NCBI GenBank assembly: GCA_052387675.1
Contig: JBQTIY010000001.1
Location: 93,480 to 157,479, forward strand
From: Planctomycetota bacterium
GTDB lineage: Bacteria; Planctomycetota; B15-G4
Length of the DNA stretch: 64,000 bases
Direction of reading: 5' to 3'
Below the pieces are notes generated by a model. That model ran no database searches. It had not been told where the DNA came from and saw only the letters and a program-made list of their open reading frames with translations. The position numbers were made by a program, and so were the translations under genes. This document shows, piece by piece, positions 24,384 through 64,000 of this stretch; the stretch's first letter is position 1, and each line of letters begins with the position of its first letter.

Positions 24384-24956
24384 ATGCAGGTCGCCAGTGA
24401 GCTCATGAAGCAGTTGGATCCAAGAGTCTCCTACGATCGCGGTCCGTGGGTGGCGCCGGAATTGGTGAACGCTGAGGGAGTTCGTGTGCAGCCGGTGCCT
24501 CAAGCGGAAAACACATCGGCCAACCCGCGAGCTGCTTTGCAGGTCGATCCAGGCCTGGCGGCTATCCCCACCGAGGACTTGCTGCGGGAACTTCAGAAGC
24601 GCGAAAAGTACTTGGCCAAGCTGCAGGCACGCCGTGTGGCCATTCGCGCCGAAATCGCAGATCTTGAGCGCGAGATCACACGGCTGAGCGACGAGGTGCA
24701 GGAGGCGCCGCGCCGGGCCGCTCCCGTCCGTGCGCAGCGCGGGCAGCGCTTCAAGAATTCGCTGAGCTTGCCGCAGGCTATGGTCGCGGAGCTCGAGACC
24801 GGCGAACACACCACGCCGCCCGAGCTGGCCAAGCGCATTTTGCGCAGCGGTTACCTCACGAATGCGTCGGACTTCCCCAAAATCGTGGCGCAGGCCCTGG
24901 CTCGCGACAAGCGCTTTCGGCGCGTCGGTCGCGGCGAGTACGAGTTGCTGGTCTGA
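24384..24956 (+). CDS. coiled-coil + HARE-HTH-like protein (family member 1)
   Basis: 190 aa. IPTEDLLRELQKREKYLAKLQARRVAIRAEIADLEREI, and a C-terminus LPQAMVAELE...PPELAKRILRSGYLTNASDFPKIVAQALARDKRFRRVGRGEYELL. Colinear with the 26489 and 57417 products. Confidence 0.6.
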   Translation: MQVASELMKQLDPRVSYDRGPWVAPELVNAEGVRVQPVPQAENTSANPRAALQVDPGLAAIPTEDLLRELQKREKYLAKLQARRVAIRAEIADLEREITRLSDEVQEAPRRAAPVRAQRGQRFKNSLSLPQAMVAELETGEHTTPPELAKRILRSGYLTNASDFPKIVAQALARDKRFRRVGRGEYELLV

Positions 24957-24961
24957 GTCGC

Positions 24962-25768
24962 ATGGCGCATGTCTCCACAGGAACCGCGCCGGCCGCCGTC
25001 GACGCAGATGGGATTGAAGAGCGCCTGCTCGGCACGCGCCTGCAGCAGGTCCTGCTCGAGCTCACTTCCAAGTGCAATCTGCGCTGTATCTACTGCGCGG
25101 TGAGCCAGCCCTTCTATGTCGGCCGTGAGCTCGAACTGGAGCGCGCGGAGATCGTGAATCAGCTCGTTGCGCTGGGCCCCATTGAGTTTCAGCTCAACGG
25201 CCACGGCGAGACCACCCTCATCAAGGGCTGGGACGAACTGGCCCGCGATCTGCTGGACCGCGGCTTGGCGCTCACGCTCATCTCGCACCTCAACAAGGAC
25301 ATGAGCGACGCCGAGATCGACGTGATGGCGCGCCTGAAGATGCTTACTGTGAGCTGCGACACGATCGACCCGGCCGTGTACCAGCGCCTGCGTCGTGGCG
25401 GCCGTCTCGAGCGGGTGGCCCAGAACCTGCGGCGCATTCTCGAGCGCTGCCGCAGCGAAGGCCTGCCCAAGCCCTACATCGCCATCAATTGCACCACCAC
25501 ACATATCAACGTGCTGGGCATTCCCGACCTCGTGCGCATGGCCGCCGAGATGGGCCTGGCCTGCGTCTCGCTCACCAACTTGGTGGAGTATCCCGAGATC
25601 CCCGGCTGCGAACGGCCGCTGCATCCGGCCGAGGTGGATCCTCAAGGCGCACTGGCCGCCGTGCGTCACGCCCGTGAGCTGGCGCAGGGTTTCGGCATTG
25701 ACTATCACGTCATGGGCGACCTCGAGGATTCGCTCGAGCAGGCGCTGCGCCGGCGAGGTGTGGCATGA
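24962..25768 (+). CDS. radical SAM protein (core only)
   Basis: 268 aa. SKCNLRCIYCAV is the CxxxCxxC cluster motif. The TIM-barrel-like remainder ends without a C-terminal Cys-rich domain. Confidence 0.8.
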   Translation: MAHVSTGTAPAAVDADGIEERLLGTRLQQVLLELTSKCNLRCIYCAVSQPFYVGRELELERAEIVNQLVALGPIEFQLNGHGETTLIKGWDELARDLLDRGLALTLISHLNKDMSDAEIDVMARLKMLTVSCDTIDPAVYQRLRRGGRLERVAQNLRRILERCRSEGLPKPYIAINCTTTHINVLGIPDLVRMAAEMGLACVSLTNLVEYPEIPGCERPLHPAEVDPQGALAAVRHARELAQGFGIDYHVMGDLEDSLEQALRRRGVA

Positions 25769-26379
25769 GCGTGCGCTGCGAGCCGGCGCCCGGCGAGACA
25801 CGCGACTGTCTCGACCCCTGGAAGATGGCCTACGTGAAGGCCGACGGCGCGGTCACGCTCTGCTGCTGGTCACAGCCGGTCGGCAATGTGAAGCACAACA
25901 CGATTCAGGAAATCCTGCACGACGAGCCGGCGCGTGCCCTGCGGCGCGGCTTGCTCACCGGCCAGATGCCCGACGACTGCATACGCTGCCCCGCGCGCGG
26001 TCTGGTCAGCACCGAAGCACTGCGCCAGAAGGTCGATGAGTACGTTTCCGATGACGACCGCCGCGAGATGATGGCTGTGCGCGCGCGCCTGCACGGGCTG
26101 CAGGAAGAGGTCGTGCAACTCCGCCACCACGCCAGCAACCTCGAGGCGGATCGCGACAATTGGCGCACCCACGCGCGCAACCTCGAGGAGGAGCGCGCGC
26201 ACTTGCGCGGCGTGATCACCGGACTCACTACCCAGGCGGAAGCACTCAGCGAGCAAGTGGCCGCCGTGGAACAGGGCCGCGTGCCGCTCGGGGGCCTGAT
26301 CCGCACGTGGCTGCGCGGGCGTGTGCGGCGCAGCAAGCTGGGCGGGCGCTGGTTCCGGCCGCCGACGGGCCCGCGCTGA
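25765..26379 (+). CDS. SPASM/twitch-like Cys-rich domain fused to long coiled coil
   Basis: 204 aa. CLDPWKMAYVKADGAVTLCC (C-x12-G-x4-C) and CIRCPARG, followed by ~100 aa of heptad-like sequence. ATGA overlap with the radical SAM gene. Confidence 0.6.
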   Translation: MSVRCEPAPGETRDCLDPWKMAYVKADGAVTLCCWSQPVGNVKHNTIQEILHDEPARALRRGLLTGQMPDDCIRCPARGLVSTEALRQKVDEYVSDDDRREMMAVRARLHGLQEEVVQLRHHASNLEADRDNWRTHARNLEEERAHLRGVITGLTTQAEALSEQVAAVEQGRVPLGGLIRTWLRGRVRRSKLGGRWFRPPTGPR

Positions 26380-26488: not shown

Positions 26489-26932
26489 ATGTCCATGAAG
26501 TCCCTCTCCACCGCCGAGCTTCGTCGTGAACTCGAGCGCCGCGAGCGCGGCGCAAAGAAGCTCCTGGCTAAGCGCACCAAACTCGCATCGGCGCTGGCCG
26601 CCCTCGACGGCGAGCTGGCCGATCTGGGTGTTGCAGGTGGTTCGGCGCGCGGCCGGTCGGCTGGCCGTCCTAAGGCGGGCCGCAAGGCTGGCAAGGCCGG
26701 CAAGGCGCGCGCTCGCAATCCGCGGGCCAAGAACAAGATGAACCTCGCGGACTCGCTGGCCGCGGCGATCCGAGTCGGCACAGTTGTCTCGCCCGCTCAA
26801 GCCATCGAGCGCGTCAAGGCCGCCGGCTACAAGACCAACAACAGCGCCTTCCGCATCTCGGTCACGCAGACGCTCTCCAACGACAAGCGCTTCAAGCGCA
26901 AGGGTCACGGCCAGTACGTCCGCGTTGGCTGA
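26489..26932 (+). CDS. coiled-coil + AT-hook-like + HARE-HTH-like protein (family member 2)
   Basis: ORF 26321..26932 trimmed to ATG 26489 (MSMKSLSTAELRRELERRERGAKKL). Basic linker with AGRPKAGRK. C-terminus LADSLAAAIRVGTVVSPAQAIERVKAAGYKTNNSAFRISVTQTLSNDKRFKRKGHGQYVRV. Confidence 0.65.
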   Translation: MSMKSLSTAELRRELERRERGAKKLLAKRTKLASALAALDGELADLGVAGGSARGRSAGRPKAGRKAGKAGKARARNPRAKNKMNLADSLAAAIRVGTVVSPAQAIERVKAAGYKTNNSAFRISVTQTLSNDKRFKRKGHGQYVRVG

Positions 26933-26940
26933 GACCCTCG

Positions 26941-27183
26941 CTAGAGCTTCATCCGCCTGAGGACTACGAGCACCAGGTCCACTTGCTCGATGGTCATGGC
27001 CCCCATCGCGACGAGGATCTCGCCGATTTTACGCGGCGCGCGGCCAGCGCGCTCGGCGTGCTTCTGCTCGGTGAGCGCCGAGTAGAGCTGCGCGGGGCTG
27101 ACGAAGCCCTTGAGGCAGGCGACTTCACCAAAGAGCTGGGGATCGGACTGCCCGTCATCCGACGAGGCGGTTGCAGGCGTCAT
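26941..27183 (-). CDS. stand-alone MshEN/T2SSE_N-like mini-protein (copy 1)
   Basis: ORF 26941..27354 trimmed to ATG 27183, giving 80 aa. Contains LFGEVACLKGFVSPAQLYSALTEQ and RKIGEILVAMGAMTIEQVDLVLVVL, two half-motifs like the GspE/MshE N-terminal domain. Confidence 0.6.
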   Translation of the reverse strand: MTPATASSDDGQSDPQLFGEVACLKGFVSPAQLYSALTEQKHAERAGRAPRKIGEILVAMGAMTIEQVDLVLVVLRRMKL

Positions 27184-27263
27184 GAATCGACTCTCGCGTT
27201 TCCCGGGGCTGAACTGCTCAGGAAGGAGAGCGAGAGCAGCGGCCCCCTCGGGACAGGAATTCC
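27184..27263 (-). promoter_or_regulatory. conserved 5' leader/promoter region of MshEN-like genes (GGAATTCCTGTCCC box at 27250..27263)
   Basis: GGAATTCCTGTCCC lies 80 nt upstream of the start. The same box is 76 and 79 nt upstream of the other two copies, followed by a CT-rich tract and TGAGCA. Confidence 0.45.
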
Positions 27264-35769: not shown

Positions 35770-35825
35770 CTTCGCTCGCGCCTTTTCTCTTACGCTGCAC
35801 ACTTCCCGCCCAGGAGCACGCCGCC

Positions 35826-36059
35826 ATGAGCGACACGAACGTTCAGATCACCGCCAACGGCCCGCTGCGCATCACGGGCAACTTCGAGATCTCGGACCCC
35901 ACAGGAGCCAAGTTCGACCTGGCCGGACGCACGACAATCTCGCTTTGCCGCTGCGGCCACTCCGCGAACAAGCCCTTCTGCGACGGCGCGCATAACATGG
36001 CGGCCTTCCGGTCCGACGAGAAGGCGCGCGTACTGCCGCCCCCCAAGACGCGGGGCTAA
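35826..36059 (+). CDS. CDGSH iron-sulfur domain protein (copy 1)
   Basis: Trimmed to ATG 35826, giving 77 aa. CRCGHSANKPFCDGAH is the CDGSH [2Fe-2S] motif. Confidence 0.85.
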   Translation: MSDTNVQITANGPLRITGNFEISDPTGAKFDLAGRTTISLCRCGHSANKPFCDGAHNMAAFRSDEKARVLPPPKTRG

Positions 36060-36087
36060 CCGCCGCTCAGCGCGCTGGCTGACTTCG

Positions 36088-36332
36088 CTATCGCTTCATC
36101 CGGTTCAGAACCACCACCACAAGGTCCACCTGCTTGGGGGTCATGGCCCCCATGGCGACGAGGATCTCGCCGATCTTGCGCACGGGGCGGCCGGCGCGCG
36201 CGGCGTGCTACTGCTCGGTGAGTGCCTGGTAGAGCTGCGCGGGGCTCTGATGAGGCCCTTGAGGCACGCCTCTTCACCGAAGAGCTCCGGGTCCGACTAG
36301 CCGTCGTCCGACGACCCGATCGCAAAGGTCAC
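36088..36332 (-). pseudogene. MshEN-like mini-gene, inactivated (copy 2)
   Basis: Aligns end to end with 53958..54200 but is 245 nt rather than 243 nt. It has a 2-nt insertion (GGGGCTctGATGA) and two in-frame TAG codons (CAG to TAG in DDGQSD; AAG to TAG in TEQK). The leader is retained. Confidence 0.8.
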
Positions 36333-36408
36333 CGTTCCACCTTTCCGTTTCGGAGGCGGACTTGCTCAAGAGAGAGAGAAATCGGCTACCCCCGGGGACA
36401 GGAATTCC
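36333..36408 (-). promoter_or_regulatory. conserved leader of MshEN-like gene (GGAATTCCTGTCCC at 36395..36408)
   Basis: Near-identical to 54201..54279. Confidence 0.45.
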
Positions 36409-36487: not shown

Positions 36488-36808
36488 TCAGGTGCGCTGG
36501 AGCGCTCGCCGCTTGGGCAGCAGGCGCACATCCACTCTGCGGTTCATAGCCTCGGCAATCCGGCGCAGCATCGTCAGCGAATGCCCCTCGTAGTCGGCGT
36601 CCTCGAGACGGGCGATCACAGGCTGCGTGGTCCCCGCGAGGTCCGCGAGCTGCTGCTGAGTGAGCTTGGCCGCCCTCCGGGCTTCGTAGATCATCCGCGC
36701 CACCTGCGCATTGAGCTTTTCTTCCTCCACTCGCCTCCGGAAGGAAGGATCCTTCCCGGCATCGCGGGCAATGAGGTCCAGGACGCTCTTGGTCTTCTTG
36801 CGAACCAT
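36488..36808 (-). CDS. XRE-family HTH protein, HigA-like antitoxin architecture (no toxin partner seen)
   Basis: 106 aa. LTQQQLADLAGTTQPVIARLEDADYEGHSLTMLRRIAEAMNRRVDVRLLP is an XRE HTH plus the typical antitoxin C-terminus. Confidence 0.7.
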   Translation of the reverse strand: MVRKKTKSVLDLIARDAGKDPSFRRRVEEEKLNAQVARMIYEARRAAKLTQQQLADLAGTTQPVIARLEDADYEGHSLTMLRRIAEAMNRRVDVRLLPKRRALQRT

Positions 36809-36922: not shown

Positions 36923-36965
36923 CTAGAGTTTCATCCGTTTGAGGGCCACGAGCACCCGGTCCGCC
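36923..36965 (-). pseudogene. 3'-terminal remnant of a further MshEN-like gene
   Basis: ctagagtttcatccgtttgagggccacgagcacccggtc encodes ...DRVLVALKRMKL*. Intact copy 1 has DLVLVVLRRMKL*. Similarity stops after ~43 nt. Confidence 0.55.
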
Positions 36966-37059
36966 GGCTGCCGTCGCAACGCCCGCCCCCGCCCCCGAAG
37001 AGCCCGCCCGCGTCGCCCGCTTGCTCGACCTCGCTGCGCCGATCGGGGAGAACGCCGCC

Positions 37060-37293
37060 ATGAGCGATACCAACGTTCAGATCACCGCCAACGGCCCGCT
37101 GCGGATCACGGGCAACTTCGAGATCTCGGACGCCACAGGAGCCAAGTTCGACCTGGCCGGACGCACGACAATCTCGCTTTGCCGCTGCGGCCACTCCGCG
37201 AACAAGCCCTTCTGCGACGGCGGGCACAACATGGCGGCCTTCCGGTCCGACGAGAAGGCGCGCGTACTGCCGCCCCCAAAGTCGCGGGGCTAA
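37060..37293 (+). CDS. CDGSH iron-sulfur domain protein (copy 2)
   Basis: Trimmed to ATG 37060, giving 77 aa. Differs from copy 1 at only a few positions (P24A, CDGAH to CDGGH, T74S). Confidence 0.85.
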   Translation: MSDTNVQITANGPLRITGNFEISDATGAKFDLAGRTTISLCRCGHSANKPFCDGGHNMAAFRSDEKARVLPPPKSRG

Positions 37294-37312
37294 CGACGGA
37301 TCAGGACGCCTC

Positions 37313-40614: not shown

Positions 40615-43107
40615 TCACGGCACGTCCGCCCGCAGCGCGTTGCTCAGCGCGACGCCGCAGACCGCCGCCGCGTCCTGAATCGCGTACTGAAAGTAGAGGC
40701 TCAGGCCGGACAACCCACTGGGCCAACTCGGCCAAGCGAGCGGAATGCCCCCGCCGCCGTCCGTGTTCAGCGAGAACTGGAAGGCGAGGGGCACTGGCAC
40801 CAGAGTGCCGCACTTAAACGGCGAGGGTGTGCTGGCCAGCGAGAGGAAGAGGATCGCGTTGGCCGACGACGCGGCCTGGCTCAAGGTGAGGGCGCCCGAG
40901 CTACCTGTCGTCAGCGGGCCGGTACCCACAAGCGACGGGTCGCCGATCACGCCTGCCAGGGCAAAACCGAGGTCGGCCCAGGGAATGTTGTCGAGGTCGA
41001 ACACGTAGGCCGCGCCCGAGGTGAACCCACCAGTGTCCTCGTCGTACGCACCCGCGACGACCACTTCGCCGGAGAGGGAGACTGACTCGCCGAACCGGTC
41101 CGCCGTGCCGGTGTTCGAAGCCTTGACGTAGGCGGCCTGGCTCCAGTTCGCCCCGCCGCGCACGAAAACGTAGACCGCACCGGACTGGGGCGCGCTGTTG
41201 TCGCCCTGGTCACCGTCCACGCCCGTCGCGACGCTGGCTTCGGACCAGGCTCCGACCACGGTCGTGTCGCCGGCGACCGAGACCGAGGTGCCGAATCGGT
41301 CATTCGGATCGGTGTTCGAGGCCTTCAGGTAAGCCTGCTGGCTCCAGTTCGCCCCGCTGCGCGCGAAGACGTAGGCGGCGCCCGAGTCCTGGGAGCTGTT
41401 GTCGATCGTGTCGCCGTCCACGCCGGTGGCGTTGCTGTCTTCAAAGGCCGCCCCCACAACGATCGTGTCCCCGTCAACCGAGACCGAGTAGCCGAAGATG
41501 TCGCCCGCACTCGTGTTGGAGGCCTTCAGGTAGGCCTGTTGGCTCCACATCGTTCCGCTGCGCACGAAGACGTACGCCGCGCCGGCCCCGCTTGCGCTGT
41601 TGTCGATCTGGCCACCGTTCACGCCCGTTGCGCTGTTGTCCTCCCCGGAGGCCCCTACGACCAGGGTGTCATCGGAGACCGAAACCGAGACGCCGAACGC
41701 GTCCTCCGAGCCGGTGTTCGAGGCCTTCAGGTAGGCCTGCTGGCTCCAGGTCACTCCGCTGCGCACAAAGACGTAGGCCGCGCCGGCGGTCGTGGAGCTG
41801 TCGTTGCCCTGGTTGCCGTTCACGCCGGTGGTATTGCTGTCTTCAAAGACCGCCCCGACGACGATCGTGTCCCCGGAGATCGAGACCGAGCCGCCGAACC
41901 GGTCATCCGTGAATGTGTTCGAGGCCTTCAGATAGGCCTGCTGGCTCCAGGTCACTCCGCTGCGCACAAAGACGTAGGCCGCGCCGGCGTCTGGGGCACC
42001 GTTCGCCTGGCTGCCATTCACCCCCGTGGCACTGCTCTCTTCGCCTTTCGCCCCCACGACAAGCGTGTCGCCGGAAACCGAAACCGAGCAGCCGAACGCG
42101 TCCCCCGACCCGGTGTTCGAGGCCTTCAGGTAGGCCTGCTGGCTCCAGCTAGCTCCGCTGCGCACGAAGACATAGGCTGCGCCGGAGTCGAAGGAGCTGT
42201 TGTTGCTCCCATCGCCATCCACGCCGGTTGCGTTGCTGTCCTCTCGGCTGGCCCCCACGACGACGGTGTTGCCGGACACGGAGACCGACTCGCCGAACCG
42301 GTCCTGCGCTCCGGTGTTCGAGGCCTGGAGAAAGGCCTGCTGCGCGATCGGGTCGATCGTGAGCGGGTAGCGCGCGCCGCGCTCATCGATTGTTAATAGT
42401 AGCCCGGTGGCGACCGGCTCGAAGCGGGCGGGCAGCTTACGACTGTCAGCGTCGAACACGGTCAGGCCCGCGTAGGTGACCCCCACGGCACCGTCGCCGT
42501 TCACAAACTGGACGCCACGCCCGTCGGCCTGTACCTGCGCTGCCAGATCACCGCGAACCGCGAGAGTGAAGGTCAGCGGGCCTTCTCGATCCTGCGGCGG
42601 TTGCTGCCGCACGGTATAGCCGTGCTCCAGTCCACGCGCGTCGTTGACGTACCACTCCTGCACCGTGGCGTCCCAGTCGTAGGCCACGCGCTCGCCGTCG
42701 GCAGCAACCTGCGCCGCGCCCGCAATCGCGCGCTCCTGCCCGGCGAAGCCGTAGCTCTCGAGTTGCAGGCCCCACGCCCAGCCGCCAGCGTCGGGCTGCA
42801 CCGTGAACCCGCGGCCGTCGAAGTGTGTCGTCCACTGCTGGCCCGGATTGCGTGCGGCGAAGCCCCCACTCAGTGGGGTGGCAGCGTGCCGAACTGCGTC
42901 GTGCGCCTGTCGGATGCTGGACCAATCGTCAGCACTTAGGCCATCTGACACAGCATCGAGCGGGCGCTCGTTCACGGCCTGACCACTCAACTCCGGCTGG
43001 AGGGTCAGGGCTGCAAAGATCAACGCAGAAAGAGCGATGAGTCGAGAGACTTGCGCGGATGCGCGCCGTGTCGTGGGCAGCGCGACCGAGCAGTTAACCA
43101 CGCCCAT
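40615..43107 (-). CDS. secreted FG-GAP/integrin-alpha-like beta-propeller repeat protein with conserved C-terminal domain ending ALRADVP
   Basis: ORF 40615..43584 trimmed to ATG 43107 (MGVVNCS...LIALSALIFAALTL). About 8 repeats of FG.SVS(V/L)SGDT.VVGA..E.S.ATGV.G.Q.....GAAYVFVRSG..WSQQAYLKASNT. Confidence 0.7.
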   Translation of the reverse strand: MGVVNCSVALPTTRRASAQVSRLIALSALIFAALTLQPELSGQAVNERPLDAVSDGLSADDWSSIRQAHDAVRHAATPLSGGFAARNPGQQWTTHFDGRGFTVQPDAGGWAWGLQLESYGFAGQERAIAGAAQVAADGERVAYDWDATVQEWYVNDARGLEHGYTVRQQPPQDREGPLTFTLAVRGDLAAQVQADGRGVQFVNGDGAVGVTYAGLTVFDADSRKLPARFEPVATGLLLTIDERGARYPLTIDPIAQQAFLQASNTGAQDRFGESVSVSGNTVVVGASREDSNATGVDGDGSNNSSFDSGAAYVFVRSGASWSQQAYLKASNTGSGDAFGCSVSVSGDTLVVGAKGEESSATGVNGSQANGAPDAGAAYVFVRSGVTWSQQAYLKASNTFTDDRFGGSVSISGDTIVVGAVFEDSNTTGVNGNQGNDSSTTAGAAYVFVRSGVTWSQQAYLKASNTGSEDAFGVSVSVSDDTLVVGASGEDNSATGVNGGQIDNSASGAGAAYVFVRSGTMWSQQAYLKASNTSAGDIFGYSVSVDGDTIVVGAAFEDSNATGVDGDTIDNSSQDSGAAYVFARSGANWSQQAYLKASNTDPNDRFGTSVSVAGDTTVVGAWSEASVATGVDGDQGDNSAPQSGAVYVFVRGGANWSQAAYVKASNTGTADRFGESVSLSGEVVVAGAYDEDTGGFTSGAAYVFDLDNIPWADLGFALAGVIGDPSLVGTGPLTTGSSGALTLSQAASSANAILFLSLASTPSPFKCGTLVPVPLAFQFSLNTDGGGGIPLAWPSWPSGLSGLSLYFQYAIQDAAAVCGVALSNALRADVP
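40995..42340. repeat. intragenic tandem ~156-nt coding repeats (FG-GAP-like blades)
   Basis: Stretches such as gaggccttcaggtaggcctgctggctccaggtcactccgctgcgcacaaagacgtaggccgcgccggc recur almost verbatim, for example near 41720 and 41920. Confidence 0.8.
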
Positions 43108-43169
43108 TTCCGGCCCTTTCTCGTGAGAGCAAGAGAGCGTTGTAACCGCACTCGCGCGGGGCGTGAAGG
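43108..43169 (-). promoter_or_regulatory. conserved 62-nt 5' leader shared with gene 32804..34495
   Basis: See 34496..34557; 53/62 identical. Confidence 0.5.
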
Positions 43170-43618
43170 ATGCGGCGGTCAACTGAATGCGAGCCGCACC
43201 ACGCACGCGTCGCGCCCAACACGACACCCCTCGCAAACACGCGCAGAACGGGCGATTCCTGGCCCTCGTCGCGCGGCCGGTCGCGGCGCTCGCCAAGCCT
43301 TCCCAACGCCCCGCCCGCACCCGCCTCGTTCGCACGGAGGCGATGGTTCCCCATGACCCATCCAGGTGCGAACTGGCTCGCGGTTCGAGCTTCGCAGGAA
43401 GTTTGGCCGAGACCGCACCAGGCGCGAACTCGGTCAACTCGATGAGATCCCTTGCTGAACAGGCCGTCAACTGAGCTGACATGCCACTCCGGCGGGGCTC
43501 AAAGGCAACTTCGTCTCGGCCGTGCGACCTCGAGGATCGCCAATCCCGGCCCGAATTCGTCCCGCGCAAGTTTCTGTGGGTCACACCATCATGATGATCC
43601 TCTGGTCACTCCCATTGA

Positions 43619-46821: not shown

Positions 46822-46901
46822 GCGCGTGCTCTTCCAGAGATCGCCGCCCCGGTGGGCGGCTGCCAGGCCGGTTCCAAGCGAGCACGCGCACAACGACGGA
46901 C
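46822..46901. repeat. 80-nt intergenic repeat, copy A
   Basis: 72/80 identical to 48908..48987 by manual alignment. Contains the hairpin GCCGCCC-cggt-GGGCGGC. Confidence 0.7.
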
Positions 46902-47112
46902 CCCCACGAAGGGCCCGCAGCTTGGAACCGCCATGACCCTGCCCCCCTACCGCGCCGGCCCGAAACGGTTCCGATGAGCGCCCTGCGAGGCTCGCTCTGC
47001 CGTCGCCAGCTACTCCAGCTCGAGCTGGATCGTGCCGCCCGACTTCACGACGAGCGCTGTCTCCGCGGCACCCTCCGCACCGGGCTCCCTACCCGCCGCC
47101 TGCTCGTCAAGA

Positions 47113-48907: not shown

Positions 48908-48987
48908 GCGCGTGCTCTTCGAGAGGTGGTCGCCCAGGCGGGCGGCTGCCAGGCCGGTTCCAAGCAAGCCCGCGCACAACGACGGAC
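48908..48987. repeat. 80-nt intergenic repeat, copy B
   Basis: See copy A. Both copies lie about 190-280 nt upstream of a minus-strand gene start (46616 and 48720). Confidence 0.7.
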
Positions 48988-49130
48988 GCCTCGCCGCGAT
49001 GCAAGCGCTGGGCTGGACCGAGTGCGACATCGTCAAGCGACTCATGCACAGGGCTGGCGCGCATTGATGATGACTCTCGCGTTCATCGAGTTCGCGAAAT
49101 ACTTCCGCATCCTTCGATGCGGTCGGGACA

Positions 49131-53957: not shown

Positions 53958-54200
53958 CTACAGCTTCATCCGGTTCAGCACCACCAGCACCAGATCCACC
54001 TGCTTGGGGGTCATGGCCCCCATGGCGACGAGGATCTCGCCGATCTTGCGGGCGGGGCGGGCGGCGCGCTGGTCGGCCTTCTGCTCGGTGAGCGCCTGGT
54101 AGAGCTGCGCGGGGCTGATGAAGCCCTTGAGGCAGGCCACTTCACCGAAGAGTTCCGGGTCCGACTGGCCGTCGTCTGACGACCCGATGCCGAAGGTCAC
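53958..54200 (-). CDS. stand-alone MshEN/T2SSE_N-like mini-protein (copy 3)
   Basis: 80 aa with a GTG start preceded by GGAAAGGTGGA. Contains LFGEVACLKGFISPAQLYQALTEQ and RKIGEILVAMGAMTPKQVDLVLVVL. Confidence 0.6.
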   Translation of the reverse strand: MTFGIGSSDDGQSDPELFGEVACLKGFISPAQLYQALTEQKADQRAARPARKIGEILVAMGAMTPKQVDLVLVVLNRMKL

Positions 54201-54279
54201 CGTTCCACCTTTCCGTTCCGGAGGCGAGCCTGCTCAAGAAAGAGAGCGAGAAATCGGCAACCCCCGGGACAGGAATTCC
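54201..54279 (-). promoter_or_regulatory. conserved leader of MshEN-like gene (GGAATTCCTGTCCC at 54266..54279)
   Basis: Same box and spacing as at 27250 and 36395. Confidence 0.45.
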
Positions 54280-57416: not shown

Positions 57417-58181
57417 ATGATGTCCCTACGTTCCCTATCCGTCGCAGACCTCCGCCGTGAACTTGCCCGCCGTGAGCGCGGCGCGGCTGTCCTCTCGCAG
57501 AAGCGGGCCAAGCTCGCCGCAAGCCTGGCCACGCTCGACGCCGAACTCTCGGACCTGGGTGTGACAGCTTCGAGCGCGCCCCGCCGTGGACGCCCGGCCG
57601 GCTCCAAGAACAGGCGCGGCAGCAAGGCTCCGGGCCGCAAGCCGGGCCGCAAGCCGGGCCGCGCCACAGGCCGCAAGATCGGCCGCCCCGCTGGCTCCGT
57701 CTCGCGCGGCAAGAACAAGGCCACGCTGGCCGACTCGCTCGCCGCCGCCATCCGGCCCGGCACGACGGTCTCACCGTCCGAGGCGCTCCAGCGTGTGAAG
57801 GCCGCCGGCTACAAGACCAACAGCTCGGCCTTCCGCGTGACCGTCACGCAGACGCTCATCAAGGACAGCCGCTTCAAGCGCACGGGCCAGGGGCAGTATC
57901 TGCGCGTGGGCGGCGCGGCCACCGGCGGCAAGGCGACGAAGACCGCGAAGCCGGCCAAGGCCGCCAAGCGGGCCAAGCCGGCGAAGGCCAAGCGCAAGGC
58001 GTCCAAGAAGCCGGGGCGCAAGCCGGCCCGGAAGTCCGCGCCGAAGGTTGCGCGCAAGCCCGCTCGCAAGGCCGCGCCCAAGACCGCGCGCAAGGCGCGG
58101 CGGATGGCTCCTGCGAAGGCTGCTCCCAAGGCTGCCGCGCAGCCTGTGCCGCAGGCGGCCCCGGCCGTGGCGATGGCCTAG
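57417..58181 (+). CDS. coiled-coil + AT-hook + HARE-HTH-like protein with histone-H1-like Lys/Ala/Pro tail (family member 3)
   Basis: 254 aa. LSVADLRRELARRERGAAVL, RRGRPAGSKNRRG and GRKIGRPAGS (RGRP/GRP cores), LADSLAAAIRPGTTVSPSEALQRVKAAGYKTNSSAFRVTVTQTLIKDSRFKRTGQGQYLRV, and the tail KPAKAAKRAKPAKAKRKASKKPGRKPARK... Confidence 0.65.
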   Translation: MMSLRSLSVADLRRELARRERGAAVLSQKRAKLAASLATLDAELSDLGVTASSAPRRGRPAGSKNRRGSKAPGRKPGRKPGRATGRKIGRPAGSVSRGKNKATLADSLAAAIRPGTTVSPSEALQRVKAAGYKTNSSAFRVTVTQTLIKDSRFKRTGQGQYLRVGGAATGGKATKTAKPAKAAKRAKPAKAKRKASKKPGRKPARKSAPKVARKPARKAAPKTARKARRMAPAKAAPKAAAQPVPQAAPAVAMA

Positions 58182-59838: not shown

Positions 59839-61347
59839 TCAACCACGCCCGTCTGCATCCTGCTTCGTCGAGTTCAGCCGGCGAGAGATTCTCGCAAACT
59901 GCTCCAGCGCTGTTTCGAGTTCGTCTACGATTTCGGCGGCGATTATGTCGGGAGCCGGCAGCGAATCCGTGTCGGTCAGGCTCTGGTCCTTGATCCAGAA
60001 CAGATCGAGGCTGAGTTTGTCGCGCTTGAGGATTTCGTCGTAGGTGTAGCAGCGCCAGCGGCCGTCGGGGTTCGCTTCAGTCCAGGTAGGCTTGCGTCTG
60101 TGAATGGCACTGGGCTTGTAGCACTTGACGAACTCATCGAAGTCCTGCCGTGTGATGGGCGATTGTTTTTGTGTGAAGTGCTTGTTCGTCCGCAGGTCAT
60201 AGACCCACAGCTTCTCCGTCCACGGCGCGGGGCGGCCCTCCTTCTTGTCAAAGAAGAGGACGTTTGCCTTTACGCCTGGCGAGTACCAGATGCCGGTTGG
60301 AAGGCGGAGCAGCGTGTGGATATTGCATTTCTCTAGCAGATTGCGCCGGACCTTCTCACCTGCGCCGCCTTCAAACAGGACGTTGTCTGGCAGCACCACG
60401 GCGGCGCGCCCATTGATCTTGAGCAGCGAGAACATGTGCTGCACGAAGTTGAGCTGCTTGTTGCTCGTTTCCGTCCAGAAGTCCTCACGCACAACCACGG
60501 CGTCGTCCTTCTCAGTGTCGCCCTCCTCGTTCACGAAAAGCACGCTCTGGCTTTTCCCAAAGGGGGGATTGGCCAAAATCATCGTGTACTCCTTACTCCA
60601 CGGCGCGGCGAGACTGTCATGACCGGAATGGACCACAACCTTGTCGCCGCCGATGCCGTGCAGATAGAGGTTCATCGCGCACATGCGGCCAACCTTGGGC
60701 GAGAGTTCCATCGCCTCGACGAGTTCTTCGCGCAGCGCACGCTTCTCTTCGGCGTGCAAGTCCTTACCGAACTTGGAGAGCACATAGTTGTAGGCGTTGA
60801 AAAGGAAGCCGCCCGTACCCGCCGCCGGATCGCAAATGCGGTCCTGCGGTGAGGGCTGCATCACTTCCACCATCGTCTGGATGACGGCGCGAGTCGTGAA
60901 GTACTGCCCCGCGCCCTTGGTGGACTCCGACGCGCTGCGCTGAAGCAGTTCCTCGTAGATTGTCCCCTTCACGTCCACGGGCAAACTCATCCAATCCTCT
61001 TTGTCGATGAGGTTCACGATGAGCTGCTTCAACAGCGCGGGATTGTGAATGTCGCACCGCGCGCCCTTGAAAATGACGCCGAGCATTCCGGGCCTGAGAC
61101 CGAGCTTCTCGATGGAGTCGCTGTATTGCTTCTCTAGCGCCGCACCATCAAGCGGCAGCAAGGCTTTCCAGCCGAGTTCCGGCGGCACGATGGGTTTCTG
61201 ATTGTAAGGCGCCTCGGTGAGCTGGTCGGCCATCTTGAGGAAGAGCAGCATCGTGAGCTGCTCCACATACTCCACACAGGAGAGACCGGCCTGTTGAAGG
61301 ACCCCGGCATAGCTCCAGGCTCGTTTGCCGATCTGGGATGCGTCCAT
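59839..61347 (-). CDS. hsdM: Type I restriction-modification system methyltransferase subunit
   Basis: 502 aa. HsdM_N-like N-terminus (VEYVEQLTMLLFLKMAD), the SAM motif DPAAGTGGFL and the catalytic ILANPPFG. Confidence 0.9.
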   Translation of the reverse strand: MDASQIGKRAWSYAGVLQQAGLSCVEYVEQLTMLLFLKMADQLTEAPYNQKPIVPPELGWKALLPLDGAALEKQYSDSIEKLGLRPGMLGVIFKGARCDIHNPALLKQLIVNLIDKEDWMSLPVDVKGTIYEELLQRSASESTKGAGQYFTTRAVIQTMVEVMQPSPQDRICDPAAGTGGFLFNAYNYVLSKFGKDLHAEEKRALREELVEAMELSPKVGRMCAMNLYLHGIGGDKVVVHSGHDSLAAPWSKEYTMILANPPFGKSQSVLFVNEEGDTEKDDAVVVREDFWTETSNKQLNFVQHMFSLLKINGRAAVVLPDNVLFEGGAGEKVRRNLLEKCNIHTLLRLPTGIWYSPGVKANVLFFDKKEGRPAPWTEKLWVYDLRTNKHFTQKQSPITRQDFDEFVKCYKPSAIHRRKPTWTEANPDGRWRCYTYDEILKRDKLSLDLFWIKDQSLTDTDSLPAPDIIAAEIVDELETALEQFARISRRLNSTKQDADGRG

Positions 61348-61361
61348 GGATCGTCGCTCCG

Positions 61362-62969
61362 TTAGTGCTTGCCGACGCGGGTGCGCGACTGCCTAGCTTT
61401 GGGCTTCGCCCCCTTCGCAGCCTGGGCCTGCCGGGCGCGTATCTCGCGCTCAGCCGTGATGCGTTTAAGCAGTTCGCTCGCGGGTTCGTCATTCGGGTCT
61501 TGCGGAACGAGCTGGCCGGTGAATGCGTGGCGAAGGATGCTTTGCCGCATCAAATGCGTGCTACTCAGCTTCACTTCGAGATTACTTTCAAGGTGATCAA
61601 TCACGGAGAGCTGGTCTTCCACGGCTTCAACGATGGCGGCTTGCTCGGCAATTGGTGGAAGCGAGAAAACGAAGTCGTTTAGCTGCGACGTGAACATATG
61701 CTGAATGAGGCTTCCGGTGTTTAGCTCCGCGACGAATGCTCGGAAGCGAGATGACTTAAAGAGCCAGAGCATGAAGCGTGGGTTCACTTCAATCGGCGTG
61801 AGTCGAGCCAGTCGCTGGTTGAGCAAACAGTGCTCGCCGGGAGAGGTCAAGCACACGCGTCCGAGGAAATCGTCCTTCAAAGACTGCGCTGTGAGGTTTA
61901 TGACTAGCTCGCCTTCACCCACCAAGTGATCGGGCGAGTGATCCGCGTAGTCCGGCGACATACAGCGCGTGTTGCGCTCGTTCCACCCGATGTACCCATT
62001 CGAGTAGAGATTCCCAGGACGGAGCAGTCTGACGCCCGCCGTTTGGTATTCCGCGCTCGGAAATGGTCGTCCATTCTGAGACATCCCAACTTGCTGCCAA
62101 GCCGCCCAGCACCACCTCTCCGGTAGCGGCGGGAGGTTGGTGCTGTCGGGCGCGACGGGTGCTGGGTACTTTTGTCTCCAGTCATTGGGAGGGGCCTTGC
62201 CGGCAGCTTCGAACTTTGCGAGCTGACTTTCTTCCCAGCGGCGGCGGCGTTCGGTCAGGATGCGGGCGAGTAGGGCGGAGGCGGGTTCGGTGGCTGAATG
62301 CTGCGCGCGCCACTCGGCGGTCAACGCACCTTCCACCGCCGCCTTGAGCACGGTGGCCCGGTACTGCTTCAGCTTCACCCGCACTCGCTCTAACGCCGCC
62401 ACTCCCGCGTCGAGGTCGGAGAGGAGTTCGTCGAGTGTGTCAGCGATGCGCTCTTGTTCACTCGGCGGTGGAACAATCAAAGGCACCGATTGCGCTAATG
62501 GCTCGGCGGCAATGCTCGCCTGATTGACGTGGTGCTTGCACCGATGTCGGAAATAACCCGACATCCAGAGGTAGTGAAGTTGGCGAGCAACGAATGCCGG
62601 ATTCATGCCGCTCTCGAGTCGGATCCGAGTCATGTGATTGGAGAACGCGAGTGGAGAACTGGTCGGAATCACGGTCGTCTTTCCGATAAGCTCAGGGCTA
62701 TTCGTGTTGTTGAAGAGAACGTCTCCCGCTACCAGCGTCTTAGGTACTTCGCCCTCAACTGATTTCACTTCGGACAGATCGAAGCGGCCCTCGCGGTCGA
62801 TATTCATCGGGCGAATGTGAGGAACGCCGCGTCCCTCGGAGTTGTGAGCGCCACTGGGAAAGCCGGATGTGACCGACTCCGCGATACTCGCGATCGCACA
62901 AGTCATCCAACCGTCCGGAATCGGCGCAGCGCGCATCGGATAGTGGGCGAACACCAGACCTTCGCTCAC
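61362..62969 (-). CDS. hsdS: Type I restriction-modification system specificity subunit
   Basis: 535 aa. Two target-recognition domains separated by conserved helices (PPPSEQERIADTLDELLSDLDAG...; LPPIAEQAAIVEAVEDQLSVIDHLE...). Confidence 0.85.
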   Translation of the reverse strand: MSEGLVFAHYPMRAAPIPDGWMTCAIASIAESVTSGFPSGAHNSEGRGVPHIRPMNIDREGRFDLSEVKSVEGEVPKTLVAGDVLFNNTNSPELIGKTTVIPTSSPLAFSNHMTRIRLESGMNPAFVARQLHYLWMSGYFRHRCKHHVNQASIAAEPLAQSVPLIVPPPSEQERIADTLDELLSDLDAGVAALERVRVKLKQYRATVLKAAVEGALTAEWRAQHSATEPASALLARILTERRRRWEESQLAKFEAAGKAPPNDWRQKYPAPVAPDSTNLPPLPERWCWAAWQQVGMSQNGRPFPSAEYQTAGVRLLRPGNLYSNGYIGWNERNTRCMSPDYADHSPDHLVGEGELVINLTAQSLKDDFLGRVCLTSPGEHCLLNQRLARLTPIEVNPRFMLWLFKSSRFRAFVAELNTGSLIQHMFTSQLNDFVFSLPPIAEQAAIVEAVEDQLSVIDHLESNLEVKLSSTHLMRQSILRHAFTGQLVPQDPNDEPASELLKRITAEREIRARQAQAAKGAKPKARQSRTRVGKH

Positions 62970-64000
62970 GCCGCCAATCCTTCATTCAACTCTGCAAGCA
63001 GTGGCTGGAGCTGGTTACCGAAGACCTTGAAGGCGCGGCCATAGCCGCCCTGCTGGCCAAACCAGCCGTCTTGGAACGCATCGGGCTCGATGGCGAGGCT
63101 GGTGCCGATGTGCTCGGCCATGCGGTCAAGCCATTCGCGCTGCTCGCCGGTGAATGTCGCCCCGGACTTCTCCTTGTGCCGGATCCATTCGAGGTATTTC
63201 AGGCGCACTTCCCAGGCGAAGGGTTCGAGCGGCGCGGCGGGCACAATGGCATGGCGAACGAGGGAAACGAGGTCGGCAAGCTGGTCGCCGGGGTGTGCGG
63301 TGCCCGGCACGACTTCGGCTACTTTTGCGGCCTCCACGATCTCAAACGCGCGCCAGAGCTGCGTTGGGGTGGCGGCGAGCGGCGGTGTGGCAAGCGCGTC
63401 CCGCAACAGGCGGAGGTCCTTCAGCGAGAGCTTGAGCGGCTTTGTACCGGAGTAGAGCACTTGCAGGGCGGTGAGATGGTCCTTGTTTGCGGCAATCCAC
63501 GCGCGGAAGTCCTGTACCTTCGCCCGCGCTTTCTCCACGGCGGAGGCGTCGAAGCCGGAGAACGTCACTGTGTCAATCGTATGCCGGTCAATGGTCTGCT
63601 CGTTCTGCGCACGGATCTCGAGGATTCGGCGGCGGAGCGCGGCCTTGAGCAGCGGTGCAACGGCCTGTTGCGCGAGCCGCTCCGTGGCCTGGGCAATCTG
63701 CGGCTCAGTCGGATGCCCGGTGCCGAACTGGAGCTTCGCAGCGTCAATTTGCGCATCGGCATCGCAGGCGCGCATGAGATCGGCGGAAAGGTCCGGCAGA
63801 GACTTGCCCCCGGCGAGTTCGCGCAACTCGGCAAGTTGGGCCGGAGTAACTTCCCGCTGAAGCCGCGCGAGACGACCAGCCAGCGTGGTGAGCTCCTCCG
63901 CATCGGTTCCACCCTGGCCAACGTATTCCAGCAGCTGTTGCAGCGTGGCGGAGGGCTTGCGGTTGAGCGTGTGGGAATCCGTCTTGTCCTGCTCGCAGAC
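62966..64000 (-). CDS. hsdR: Type I restriction enzyme R subunit, C-terminal part (5' end beyond right window edge)
   Basis: The reading frame stays open to position 64000; the ORF track starts it at an internal TTG (63826). The C-terminal region (TVTFSGFDASAVEKARAKVQDFRAWIAANKDHLTALQVLY...) resembles the EcoEI-type HsdR C-terminal domain. 4-nt overlap with the hsdS start. Confidence 0.7.
   Translation of the reverse strand, partial: VCEQDKTDSHTLNRKPSATLQQLLEYVGQGGTDAEELTTLAGRLARLQREVTPAQLAELRELAGGKSLPDLSADLMRACDADAQIDAAKLQFGTGHPTEPQIAQATERLAQQAVAPLLKAALRRRILEIRAQNEQTIDRHTIDTVTFSGFDASAVEKARAKVQDFRAWIAANKDHLTALQVLYSGTKPLKLSLKDLRLLRDALATPPLAATPTQLWRAFEIVEAAKVAEVVPGTAHPGDQLADLVSLVRHAIVPAAPLEPFAWEVRLKYLEWIRHKEKSGATFTGEQREWLDRMAEHIGTSLAIEPDAFQDGWFGQQGGYGRAFKVFGNQLQPLLAELNEGLAA

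What the first reader, a model, noticed from the sequence alone, without database searches (positions are those of the whole stretch)
53958..54279. Multi-copy 80-aa stand-alone MshEN-like gene with a conserved leader carrying a GGAATTCCTGTCCC box
Copies at 26941..27183 and 53958..54200 are intact, 36088..36332 is dead, and a 43-nt stub lies at 36923..36965. Each protein consists of just two half-motifs like the MshE/GspE N-terminal domain. As I recall, the c-di-GMP binding motif is RLGxx(L/V/I)(L/V/I)xxG(L/V/I)(L/V/I)xxxxLxxxLxxQ. LFGEVACLKGFISPAQLYQALTEQ fits every position except the leading Arg (Leu here), and the second half starts KIGEILVAMGAM. Free-standing MshEN minidomains would be candidate small second-messenger receptors or decoys. 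All three full copies keep the palindromic-core box GGAATTCC + TGTCCC at 76-80 nt from the start, then a CT-rich tract and TGAGCA, implying a common promoter or operator.
Basis: partly seen in the sequence, partly recalled or inferred. Interest (0 to 1): 0.65.

Follow-up and report, generated by a model that had tools for sequence, protein, structure and literature searches.

The report
Multi-copy free-standing MshEN_N mini-protein gene
A Planctomycetota genome carries two working copies, one dead copy and one fragment of an 80-residue gene that encodes only the cyclic-di-GMP-binding four-helix module of MshE-type ATPases, each copy with the same short upstream sequence; this is an uncharacterised variant of a known receptor domain, not a new kind of system.

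Summary
Two intact 80-aa genes (26941..27183 and 53958..54200), one pseudogene (36088..36332: two TAG stops and a +2 frameshift) and a 3' relic (36923..~37008) all lie on the minus strand. The three full copies each carry an exact GGAATTCCTGTCCC box 76-80 nt before the start codon.

The intact pair is under purifying selection (dN/dS 0.19, dS 0.67). The protein is a genuine MshEN_N homologue. It matches NCBIfam NF053729 (38.9 bits, cutoff 38). A family profile matches MshE 5HTL residues 4-59 (E 9e-6) and PilF (E 2.5e-10). An AlphaFold model superposes on c-di-GMP-bound MshE and PilF at 1-2 Å.

It belongs to a widespread, unstudied family of free-standing 70-120 aa proteins. These have an invariant 11-residue spacer (canonical 5) and no second-motif Gln. 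Leu at motif position 1 is experimentally compatible with binding (PilF K167L). Binding by this protein is likely but untested.

Similarity between copies starts exactly at the box, and the leader is more conserved than synonymous sites. This fits a co-duplicated promoter or operator. I found no sigma-70 promoter, RNA structure, Rfam match or occurrence of the leader outside this genome.

This is a new variant of a known kind, of moderate interest.

The parts
53958..54200 (-). Copy C: intact 80-aa free-standing MshEN_N-like gene (GTG start, TAG stop). NCBI locus tag ACT4PU_00595.
   Evidence: ORF and translation. Exact match to P0001. NF053729 at 38.9 bits against a cutoff of 38. AF2 model and Foldseek hits.
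54201..54279 (-). Leader of copy C. Box GGAATTCCTGTCCC at 54266-54279, CTCGCTCTC at 54242-54250, TGAGCAG at 54230-54236, Shine-Dalgarno-like AAGGTGG just before the GTG.
26941..27183 (-). Copy A: intact 80-aa paralogue (ATG start). 80% aa and 81% nt identity to C. Locus tag ACT4PU_00500.
   Evidence: dN/dS 0.19 against C. NF053729 at 32.9 bits, below the cutoff.
27184..27263 (-). Leader of copy A. Box at 27250-27263, CTCGCTCTC at 27226-27234, TGAGCAG at 27214-27220.
36088..36332 (-). Copy B: pseudogene, 89% identical to C, with two premature TAG codons and a +2 frameshift.
   Evidence: Only the C-terminal half is detected by the family HMM.
36333..36408 (-). Leader of copy B, 86% identical to the leader of C. 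Box at 36395-36408.
36923..37008 (-). Relic of a fourth copy. The last 43 nt (36923-36965) are well kept, including the TAG stop. The rest is decayed.
   Evidence: Local alignment score 30 against a maximum of 17 in 300 shuffles.

Best explanation
The repeated unit runs from the box to the stop codon (about 325 nt). It is a small paralogous gene family that encodes a free-standing MshEN_N module.

The protein has a disordered acidic N-terminal tail (residues 1-14) and a four-helix bundle (helices 15-25, 30-45, 53-60 and 65-79). The bundle is made of two half-motifs, LFGEVACLKGFISPAQLYQALTEQ and KIGEILVAMGAMTPKQVDLVLVVL.

The most likely function is a single-domain second-messenger adaptor. The two half-motifs would clamp the two guanines of one c-di-GMP molecule, using backbone amides of G19/E20 and G54/E55, hydrophobic stacking by L17, F18, L33, L37, I53, V68 and L72, and Q40 to the ribose-phosphate. 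The liganded mini-protein would then act in trans on a partner protein, as single-domain PilZ adaptors do.

The copies arose by local duplication and possibly gene conversion. Two are kept by selection, one has died and one is a remnant. The conserved leader that starts at GGAATTCCTGTCCC is the gene's own cis-regulatory region, a promoter or operator element followed by a CU-rich 5' UTR, and it was copied together with the gene.

Shown: the copies, the lesions in copy B, purifying selection, homology to MshEN_N, the predicted fold, and the sharp 5' boundary of similarity at the box.

Inferred: ligand binding, action in trans, and the transcriptional role of the box.
For: Real gene:
- A against C gives dN/dS 0.19 with dS 0.67.
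- 616 representative proteins match at E<=1e-3.
- 478 clusters match the family profile, and nearly all of the 120 listed are 70-142 aa 'hypothetical proteins'.

MshEN_N homology:
- NF053729 'c-di-GMP_motif, MshE-related' scores 38.9 bits for copy C against a cutoff of 38. All 90 family members tested hit this model.
- phmmer matches PilF 6F8L at E 1.7e-4.
- The family profile matches PilF at 2.5e-10 and MshE 5HTL residues 4-59 at 9.2e-6, and also matches PilB.
- The AF2 model has a core pLDDT of 80-85.
- The top 13 Foldseek PDB hits are all MshE, PilF GSPII or PilB-N, with probability 0.41-1.0 (0.94-1.0 for the c-di-GMP-bound MshE and PilF GSPII-B entries) and rmsd 1.0-2.6 Å over 52-63 columns in the crystal-structure hits.

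Binding is plausible:
- Isolated VcMshEN_N 1-62 binds c-di-GMP with KD 0.35 uM (PMC5013675).
- Leu at motif position 1 binds in the PilF K167L structure 8PE0 (PMC11731258).
- Seven of the eight positions whose change inactivates XpsE are retained here.
- In L125 the closest homologue type sits 17 nt upstream of a GGDEF-EAL gene.

Leader:
- The box is exact in 3 of 3 copies.
- Identity upstream of the box is 0.52, against a random level of 0.50±0.02, even for the B-C pair whose leaders are 86% identical.
- The A-C leader is 72% identical, against 56% at synonymous sites.
Against: - No binding data exist for any member of this free-standing family in the literature I could search.
- The spacer is 11 residues, invariant in the family, instead of 5.
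- The Gln that ends motif II is hydrophobic in all but one of the 90 family members aligned (T in that one), and the conserved Arg of motif II is shifted by one position.
- Single Gln mutations in PilF cost 77-158-fold in affinity.
- Copy A is below the NCBIfam cutoff, and Pfam PF05157 does not match.
- No GGDEF, EAL or PilZ gene was found among about 40 window ORFs scanned.
- The three copies have no common neighbour that would point to a partner.
- For the box: there are only two independent lineages (A against B/C). The 15-nt exact run has P about 0.006 against synonymous-site identity, but only 0.13 against the leader's own identity.
- No recognisable promoter consensus was found.
Confidence: 0.55

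Rival explanations
1. The module is a degenerate MshEN_N fold that no longer binds c-di-GMP. It would serve only as a small protein-protein interaction piece, like the non-binding XpsE N-domain or the PilB-N domain that docks PilZ in Xanthomonas. Alternatively, it binds a different nucleotide.
For: - The spacer is lengthened from 5 to 11 residues and is invariant in the family, the second Gln is lost, and the Arg of motif II is shifted.
- Q61V is one of the changes listed for the non-binding XpsE.
- Foldseek also retrieves the PilB-N/PilZ complexes 7LKM, 7LKN and 7LKO.
- Only 40 of 90 family members satisfy the published relaxed motif even once.
Against: - The residues that matter most are invariant or nearly so across the family: both Gly, the Leu clusters and Q40. 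Conservation of exactly the ligand-contacting set is hard to explain without a ligand.
- Single loss of one Gln still leaves sub-micromolar binding in PilF.
- One close homologue is adjacent to a GGDEF-EAL gene.
Confidence: 0.3
2. The box and leader have no regulatory role. They are conserved only because the copies are young or were homogenised by gene conversion, and the box simply marks where the copied tract ends.
For: - B and C are 86-89% identical throughout, as expected for a recent copy or a conversion tract.
- The 15-nt run is not significant against the leader's own 72% identity (P 0.13).
- No promoter, terminator, RNA fold or Rfam match was found.
- The leader is absent from homologues in other genomes.
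Against: - A and C are old paralogues (dS 0.67), yet their leader is more conserved than synonymous sites. The longest identical block lies at its far 5' edge, where a neutral tract would have decayed like the flanks.
- The same 5' boundary is seen in all three pairwise comparisons.
Confidence: 0.3
3. The leader acts at the RNA level. The CU-rich tract would pair with the purine-rich Shine-Dalgarno region to gate translation, or GGA motifs would recruit a CsrA-like protein. In this reading it is not a DNA operator.
For: - In A, CUCUCGC can pair perfectly with GCGAGAG at the ribosome-binding site. In B and C, CUUUCU can pair with GGAAAG. These pairings were read from the sequences.
- The CU-rich tract and UGAGCA are conserved in all copies.
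Against: - Folding energies are no better than shuffles (z -0.96, 0.09 and 0.04).
- The alifold covariation term is positive, with one compensatory pair out of 24.
- No Rfam family matches at E<=1.
- Any CU-rich tract will pair with any Shine-Dalgarno sequence.
Confidence: 0.15
4. The ORFs are spurious, and the repeat is a non-coding repetitive element.
For: The product is small, has no Pfam hit, and is annotated as hypothetical.
Against: dN/dS is 0.19. Hundreds of homologues share the same invariant residues. A confident helical model was obtained. The dead copy shows what neutral decay looks like.
Confidence: 0.01

Closest known systems
MshEN_N subdomain of MshE/PilB/PilF-type ATPases (V. 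cholerae MshE 5HTL; T. thermophilus PilF GSPII-B 8PDK)
   Same: - Two tandem 24-residue half-motifs form a four-helix bundle.
- The Gly pairs, the Leu clusters and the first Gln are conserved.
- The profile and the predicted fold both match.
- The isolated subdomain is known to be sufficient for c-di-GMP binding.
   Different: - It is free-standing, with no MshEN_C/N1 subdomain and no ATPase.
- The spacer is 11 residues rather than 5.
- Motif I starts with Leu rather than Arg.
- Motif II ends with Leu rather than Gln.
- It has an acidic disordered N-terminus instead of the basic patch of MshE.
MshEN_N-only architectures listed by Wang et al. 2016 (Supplementary Table 4): (MshEN_N)2 cce_1044, MshEN_N-AAA_31 EpsG, REC-MshEN_N Bd2402
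   Same: These also have MshEN_N without the N1 subdomain. The weak TIGR03029 EpsG hit of copy C falls on that N-terminal module.
   Different: Those are tandem modules or are fused to an output domain. A single free module of 70-90 aa is not among the architectures in that table.
Single-domain PilZ adaptor proteins (for example MapZ/PA4608)
   Same: This is a functional analogy only: a small stand-alone c-di-GMP receptor that acts by binding a partner protein.
   Different: The fold and the binding motif are unrelated. No partner is known here.
Uncharacterised free-standing family found here (for example Geopsychrobacter electrodiphilus 81-aa protein P0205, and Planctomycetota P0204, P0210, P0215, P0248)
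   Same: Same length class. The same residues are invariant (F18, G19, A22, G26, Q40, G54), and the 11-residue spacer is the same.
   Different: - Those in five Planctomycetota-type lineages lie in a conserved ADP-ribosylglycohydrolase / mini-MshEN / lpxK / hldE / T2SSE-ATPase neighbourhood.
- The window copies are 41-54% identical paralogues in unrelated, variable contexts.
- The window copies are multi-copy and carry their own leader box.

Membership tests
MshEN_N c-di-GMP-binding module (Wang et al. 2016; NCBIfam NF053729) | Match to the curated 53-position profile at or above its cutoff | tested here: met
   Copy C scores 38.9 bits against a cutoff of 38. Copy A scores 32.9, below the cutoff. 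All 90 family members match at E<=1e-3, best 2.4e-16.
MshEN_N c-di-GMP-binding module | Two tandem 24-residue motifs [RKPN]hGxxhhxx[GAS]hhxxxxhxxxhxx[QNKRYWST] (relaxed form) | tested here: inconclusive
   Each half-motif fails one position: motif I position 1 is L and motif II position 24 is L. Leu at position 1 was later shown to be acceptable. Against the strict motif there are 4 misfits in motif I and 6 in motif II.
MshEN_N c-di-GMP-binding module | Five-residue spacer giving a 53-residue unit | tested here: not met
   The spacer is 11 residues (KADQRAARPAR). The length is invariant in all 90 family members.
MshEN_N c-di-GMP-binding module | Four-helix bundle superposable on ligand-bound MshE or PilF | tested here: met
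   The AF2 model has four helices and mean pLDDT 73. Foldseek matches 5HTL, 8PDK, 8PFA and 9GLG at rmsd 1.0-2.0 Å and probability 0.99-1.0. This is a predicted model, not an experimental structure.
MshEN_N c-di-GMP-binding module | Specific binding of c-di-GMP | not testable with these tools
   Needs ITC, DRaCALA or DSF on purified protein.
Full MshEN / T2SSE_N domain (Pfam PF05157) | MshEN_N plus the MshEN_C (N1) subdomain, with a profile match | tested here: not met
   No PF05157 hit even at E<=10. The protein ends right after helix 4, so there is no room for the N1 subdomain.
Free-standing mini-MshEN_N family (unnamed) | 70-120 aa, a single module, invariant F/G/A/G/Q/G columns and a 13-residue Q-to-G distance | tested here: met
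   The family HMM scores 92.7 bits for copy C and 83.6 bits for copy A.
c-di-GMP riboswitch or other known RNA element (for the leader) | Covariance-model match, or a stable conserved fold | tested here: not met
   No Rfam match at the gathering threshold or at E<=1. Fold z-scores are about 0. No covariation was found.
Sigma-70-type promoter (for the leader) | TTGACA-N16-18-TATAAT-like hexamers | tested here: not met
   No sites in either intergenic region. Other sigma types could not be tested.

The most novel reading that the evidence does not exclude
The free-standing, long-spacer proteins form a distinct class of trans-acting nucleotide receptors. They share an invariant 11-residue spacer, a shifted Arg and no second Gln. 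They may have altered ligand specificity, and they may supply in trans the sensor that is missing from the MshEN-less T2SSE-type ATPases and LPS-core enzymes beside which the Planctomycetota members are encoded. In this genome the class has expanded into a dosage-tunable multi-copy set that shares one operator, the GGAATTCC box.
Probability: 0.15. Interest if true: 0.6.

Novelty: new variant of a known kind. Interest (0 to 1): 0.4.

Why it matters
MshEN is one of only two truly widespread c-di-GMP receptor domains, and it has been studied almost only as part of ATPases. The isolated 62-residue subdomain binds ligand in vitro. A natural, widespread family of single-module proteins would therefore be the MshEN counterpart of single-domain PilZ adaptors, and it would add many unrecognised receptors to c-di-GMP censuses, particularly in Planctomycetota and Desulfuromonadota-type bacteria. 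The invariant longer spacer and the missing second Gln give a clean test of how much of the 53-residue rule is really needed. The multi-copy state and the shared leader are local details of one genome and matter less.

Tried and rejected
1. Scan of genome contigs with the bare 14-mer box. It returned 119+ hits across unrelated phyla.

2. Scan of metagenome contigs with box-N24-31-TGAGCA. It returned 26 loci.
   - None resembles the leader between the anchors (3-11 of 29 identical).
   - None encodes an MshEN-like ORF.
   - Several belong to an unrelated conserved coding sequence.

3. RNA-element hypotheses, all negative: Rfam, single-sequence folds and alifold.

4. Sigma-70 promoter and terminator scans. 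No promoter was found. One weak terminator-like hit lies in the leader of C only and is not conserved in A.

5. N-terminal extension of the protein through the box. Rejected, because in C an in-frame stop lies between the box and the start codon (open frame 53961-54233).

6. Phage or anti-defence 'sponge' origin. No PHROG hit and no tblastn hit in 50,697 phage records.

7. A shared partner gene. The three copies have different neighbours.
   - Upstream: S9 peptidase (A), CarboxypepD_reg protein (C), XRE/HTH gene (B).
   - Downstream: convergent Lys-rich gene (A), lipoprotein and trypsin-like peptidase (C), CDGSH gene (B).

8. Leaders of distant homologues. They carry no box.

9. The look-up of encoding contigs for P0001 found no record. 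The look-up for P0002 returned only a 3.8-kb Logan contig.

Full report
**1. What is in the sequence**

The feature lies on the minus strand. Copy C (53958..54200, GTG start) and copy A (26941..27183, ATG start) are intact 80-codon ORFs. Their products are 80% identical and their DNA 81% identical.

Copy B (36088..36332) is 89% identical to C. It carries CAG>TAG at codon 12, AAG>TAG at codon 41 and a 2-nt insertion after codon 28, so it is dead.

A fourth remnant ends at 36923 with ...LVALKRMKL-TAG. It aligns with the last ~85 nt of the gene with a score of 30, against a maximum of 17 in 300 shuffles.

The 14-mer GGAATTCCTGTCCC occurs exactly three times in 64 kb, always in front of a copy. 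About 0.24 matches are expected even with two mismatches allowed.

The source is a Planctomycetota MAG. The two intact products are NCBI 'hypothetical proteins' ACT4PU_00595 and ACT4PU_00500 on a 314-kb contig.

**2. They are real genes**

Between A and C, dS is 0.67 and dN/dS is 0.19. A full-library HMMER search found 616 representative proteins at E<=1e-3. A profile of the short homologues found 478 clusters. Nearly all of the 120 listed are 70-142 aa and unnamed. The few with source names come from Planctomycetota, a Deltaproteobacteria MAG and Geopsychrobacter electrodiphilus.

**3. What the protein is**

Sequence evidence:
- Pfam gives nothing significant, and in particular no PF05157 hit.
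- NCBIfam NF053729, 'cyclic di-GMP-binding domain-containing protein, MshE-related', is a 53-position model. It matches C at 38.9 bits (cutoff 38) and A at 32.9 bits. It matches all 90 family members tested.
- Against PDB sequences, the single protein hits T. thermophilus PilF (E 1.7e-4) and its c-di-GMP-binding GSPII-B constructs.
- The family profile hits PilF (2.5e-10), V. cholerae MshE 5HTL residues 4-59 (9.2e-6) and PilB.

Structural evidence:
- An AlphaFold2 model built on the 90-sequence alignment has mean pLDDT 73, a core of 80-85, a disordered N-terminus 1-12, and four helices at 15-25, 30-45, 53-60 and 65-79.
- Its 13 best Foldseek matches in the PDB are all MshE, PilF GSPII or PilB-N domains. 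The ligand-bound MshE and PilF GSPII-B crystal structures among them match at rmsd 1.0-2.0 Å over 54-63 columns with probability 0.94-1.0. The E-values are poor, as expected for a 65-residue helical unit.

Homology to the MshEN_N subdomain is therefore well supported.

**4. Does it bind c-di-GMP?**

This is inferred, not shown.

In favour:
- Isolated VcMshEN_N 1-62 binds with KD 0.35 uM, so a free module is sufficient (PMC5013675).
- The 'missing Arg' is not a defect. PilF K167L was crystallised with c-di-GMP, and the consensus was extended to (R/K/L)LG (PMC11731258).
- In the family, motif I position 1 is R (41 members), M (25) or L (24).
- Both Gly residues and Q40 are invariant across the 90 sequences, and the Leu-cluster positions are at least 95% conserved.
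- Seven of the eight positions whose change inactivates XpsE are retained.
- In locus L125, one of the closest homologues (53% identity) lies 17 nt upstream of a GGDEF-EAL gene.

Against:
- The spacer is 11 residues, invariant in the family, instead of 5.
- The Gln that closes motif II is hydrophobic in all but one of the 90 aligned members (T in that one).
- The conserved Arg of motif II sits one position earlier than in the canonical motif.
- Single Gln mutations cost PilF 77-158-fold in affinity, although the mutants still bind at about 0.5-1 uM.
- Strictly, neither half-motif passes even the relaxed published pattern, each failing one position.

I put c-di-GMP binding at roughly 55-60%.

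**5. Context**

The three copies share no neighbour.
- A lies after an S9 peptidase gene and converges on a 147-aa Lys-rich gene.
- C lies after a 969-aa CarboxypepD_reg-repeat gene and immediately before a lipoprotein and a trypsin-like peptidase.
- B lies after an XRE/HTH_37 gene.

No GGDEF, EAL or PilZ gene was found among about 40 ORFs scanned. No further divergent MshEN_N module is present in the window.

In five other lineages with Planctomycetota-type synteny, a 72-80 aa family member sits in a conserved neighbourhood: ADP-ribosylglycohydrolase / mini-MshEN / LpxK / HldE / T2SSE ATPase. The ATPase there carries only PF00437. The window copies are thus lineage-specific extra paralogues in a variable region.

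**6. The leader**

Similarity between copies begins exactly at the box. The 200 nt upstream are 0.52 identical in every pair, against 0.50±0.02 for random window segments. The leaders themselves are 86% (B-C) and 72% (A-C) identical. The A-C leader is more conserved than synonymous sites (56% identity). This favours a functional cis element that was copied with the gene and lies at the outer edge of the unit.

The evidence is thin:
- There are only two independent lineages.
- The 15-nt identical run has P about 0.006 if synonymous-site identity is the background, but 0.13 against the leader's own identity.
- No sigma-70-like promoter was found.
- No fold is better than shuffles, there is no covariation, and no Rfam family matches.
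- Neither the box nor the leader occurs beside homologues elsewhere.
- No leader-like sequence was found in metagenomes.

GGAAT followed 16-17 nt later by CCGAT (B, C) or CGCTG (A) could be read as an ECF-type promoter. That is a guess from my general knowledge of ECF promoters, not a test.

**7. Comparison and novelty**

Wang et al. listed MshEN_N-only architectures that are tandem or fused to another domain: (MshEN_N)2, MshEN_N-AAA_31, REC-MshEN_N and others. A single free module is not among them. I found no paper on such proteins. The domain itself is known and curated, and NCBI's model already recognises these proteins.

I therefore file this as a new variant of a known kind: free-standing, long-spacer and multi-copy. 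It is not a new system.

**8. Verdict**

- The MshEN-like reading is supported at the level of homology and fold.
- Ligand binding and the promoter or operator role remain hypotheses with clear tests.
- Interest is moderate (0.4).

Noticed in passing
window 35813-36075 and 37047-37309: Two copies of a CDGSH iron-sulfur gene, 94% identical over 263 nt, flank a 971-bp segment. That segment holds pseudogene B, an XRE/HTH_37 gene (36488..36808) and the stub. The layout resembles a duplication or a Campbell-type recombination at the CDGSH gene.
   Followed up: partly
L121, L126-L128, L129-L130, L131, L159-L160: In five other lineages with Planctomycetota-type synteny, a 72-80 aa mini-MshEN_N gene sits in a conserved neighbourhood: ADP-ribosylglycohydrolase / mini-MshEN / LpxK / HldE / T2SSE-type ATPase. 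The ATPase carries only PF00437 and has no MshEN domain of its own, which hints at an LPS or secretion-linked role in trans.
   Followed up: partly
L125 1458-3426; L124 5001-5279: The closest homologues (92 aa, about 53% identity) follow a GDPD phosphodiesterase gene. In L125 the homologue is followed 17 nt later by a GGDEF-EAL gene.
   Followed up: no
window 26489-26932 (+) and 57417-58181 (+): Two paralogous Lys/Arg-rich proteins with no Pfam match are 60% identical over 164 aligned columns covering all of the 147-aa protein. One converges on copy A. The other lies 3.2 kb from copy C. The 18 nt after the stop of pseudogene B also resemble the 3' end of the first.
   Followed up: partly
window 46822-46904 and 48908-48990: An 83-nt repeat (89% identical) lies upstream of two minus-strand ORFs (345 aa and 578 aa). 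The two proteins are not similar to each other. This is a second shared upstream element in the same low-GC stretch (44-54 kb, GC about 0.60).
   Followed up: partly
window 41034-42335: Five 201-nt-spaced repeats (70-73% identical) lie inside a 989-aa FG-GAP-repeat protein gene (40615..43584).
   Followed up: no
window 59839-63826: A type I restriction-modification cluster: HsdM (N6_Mtase), HsdS (Methylase_S) and the C-terminal part of an EcoEI-type HsdR, in a lower-GC stretch.
   Followed up: no
window 24384-26379: A radical SAM gene and a SPASM-domain gene follow a 190-aa ORF with no Pfam match, directly beside the copy A neighbourhood. This may be a peptide-maturation cassette.
   Followed up: no
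window 5876-10226: Two adjacent TrkH paralogues, apparently overlapping (they share 58-70-nt repeats at 76% identity), are followed by TrkA.
   Followed up: no
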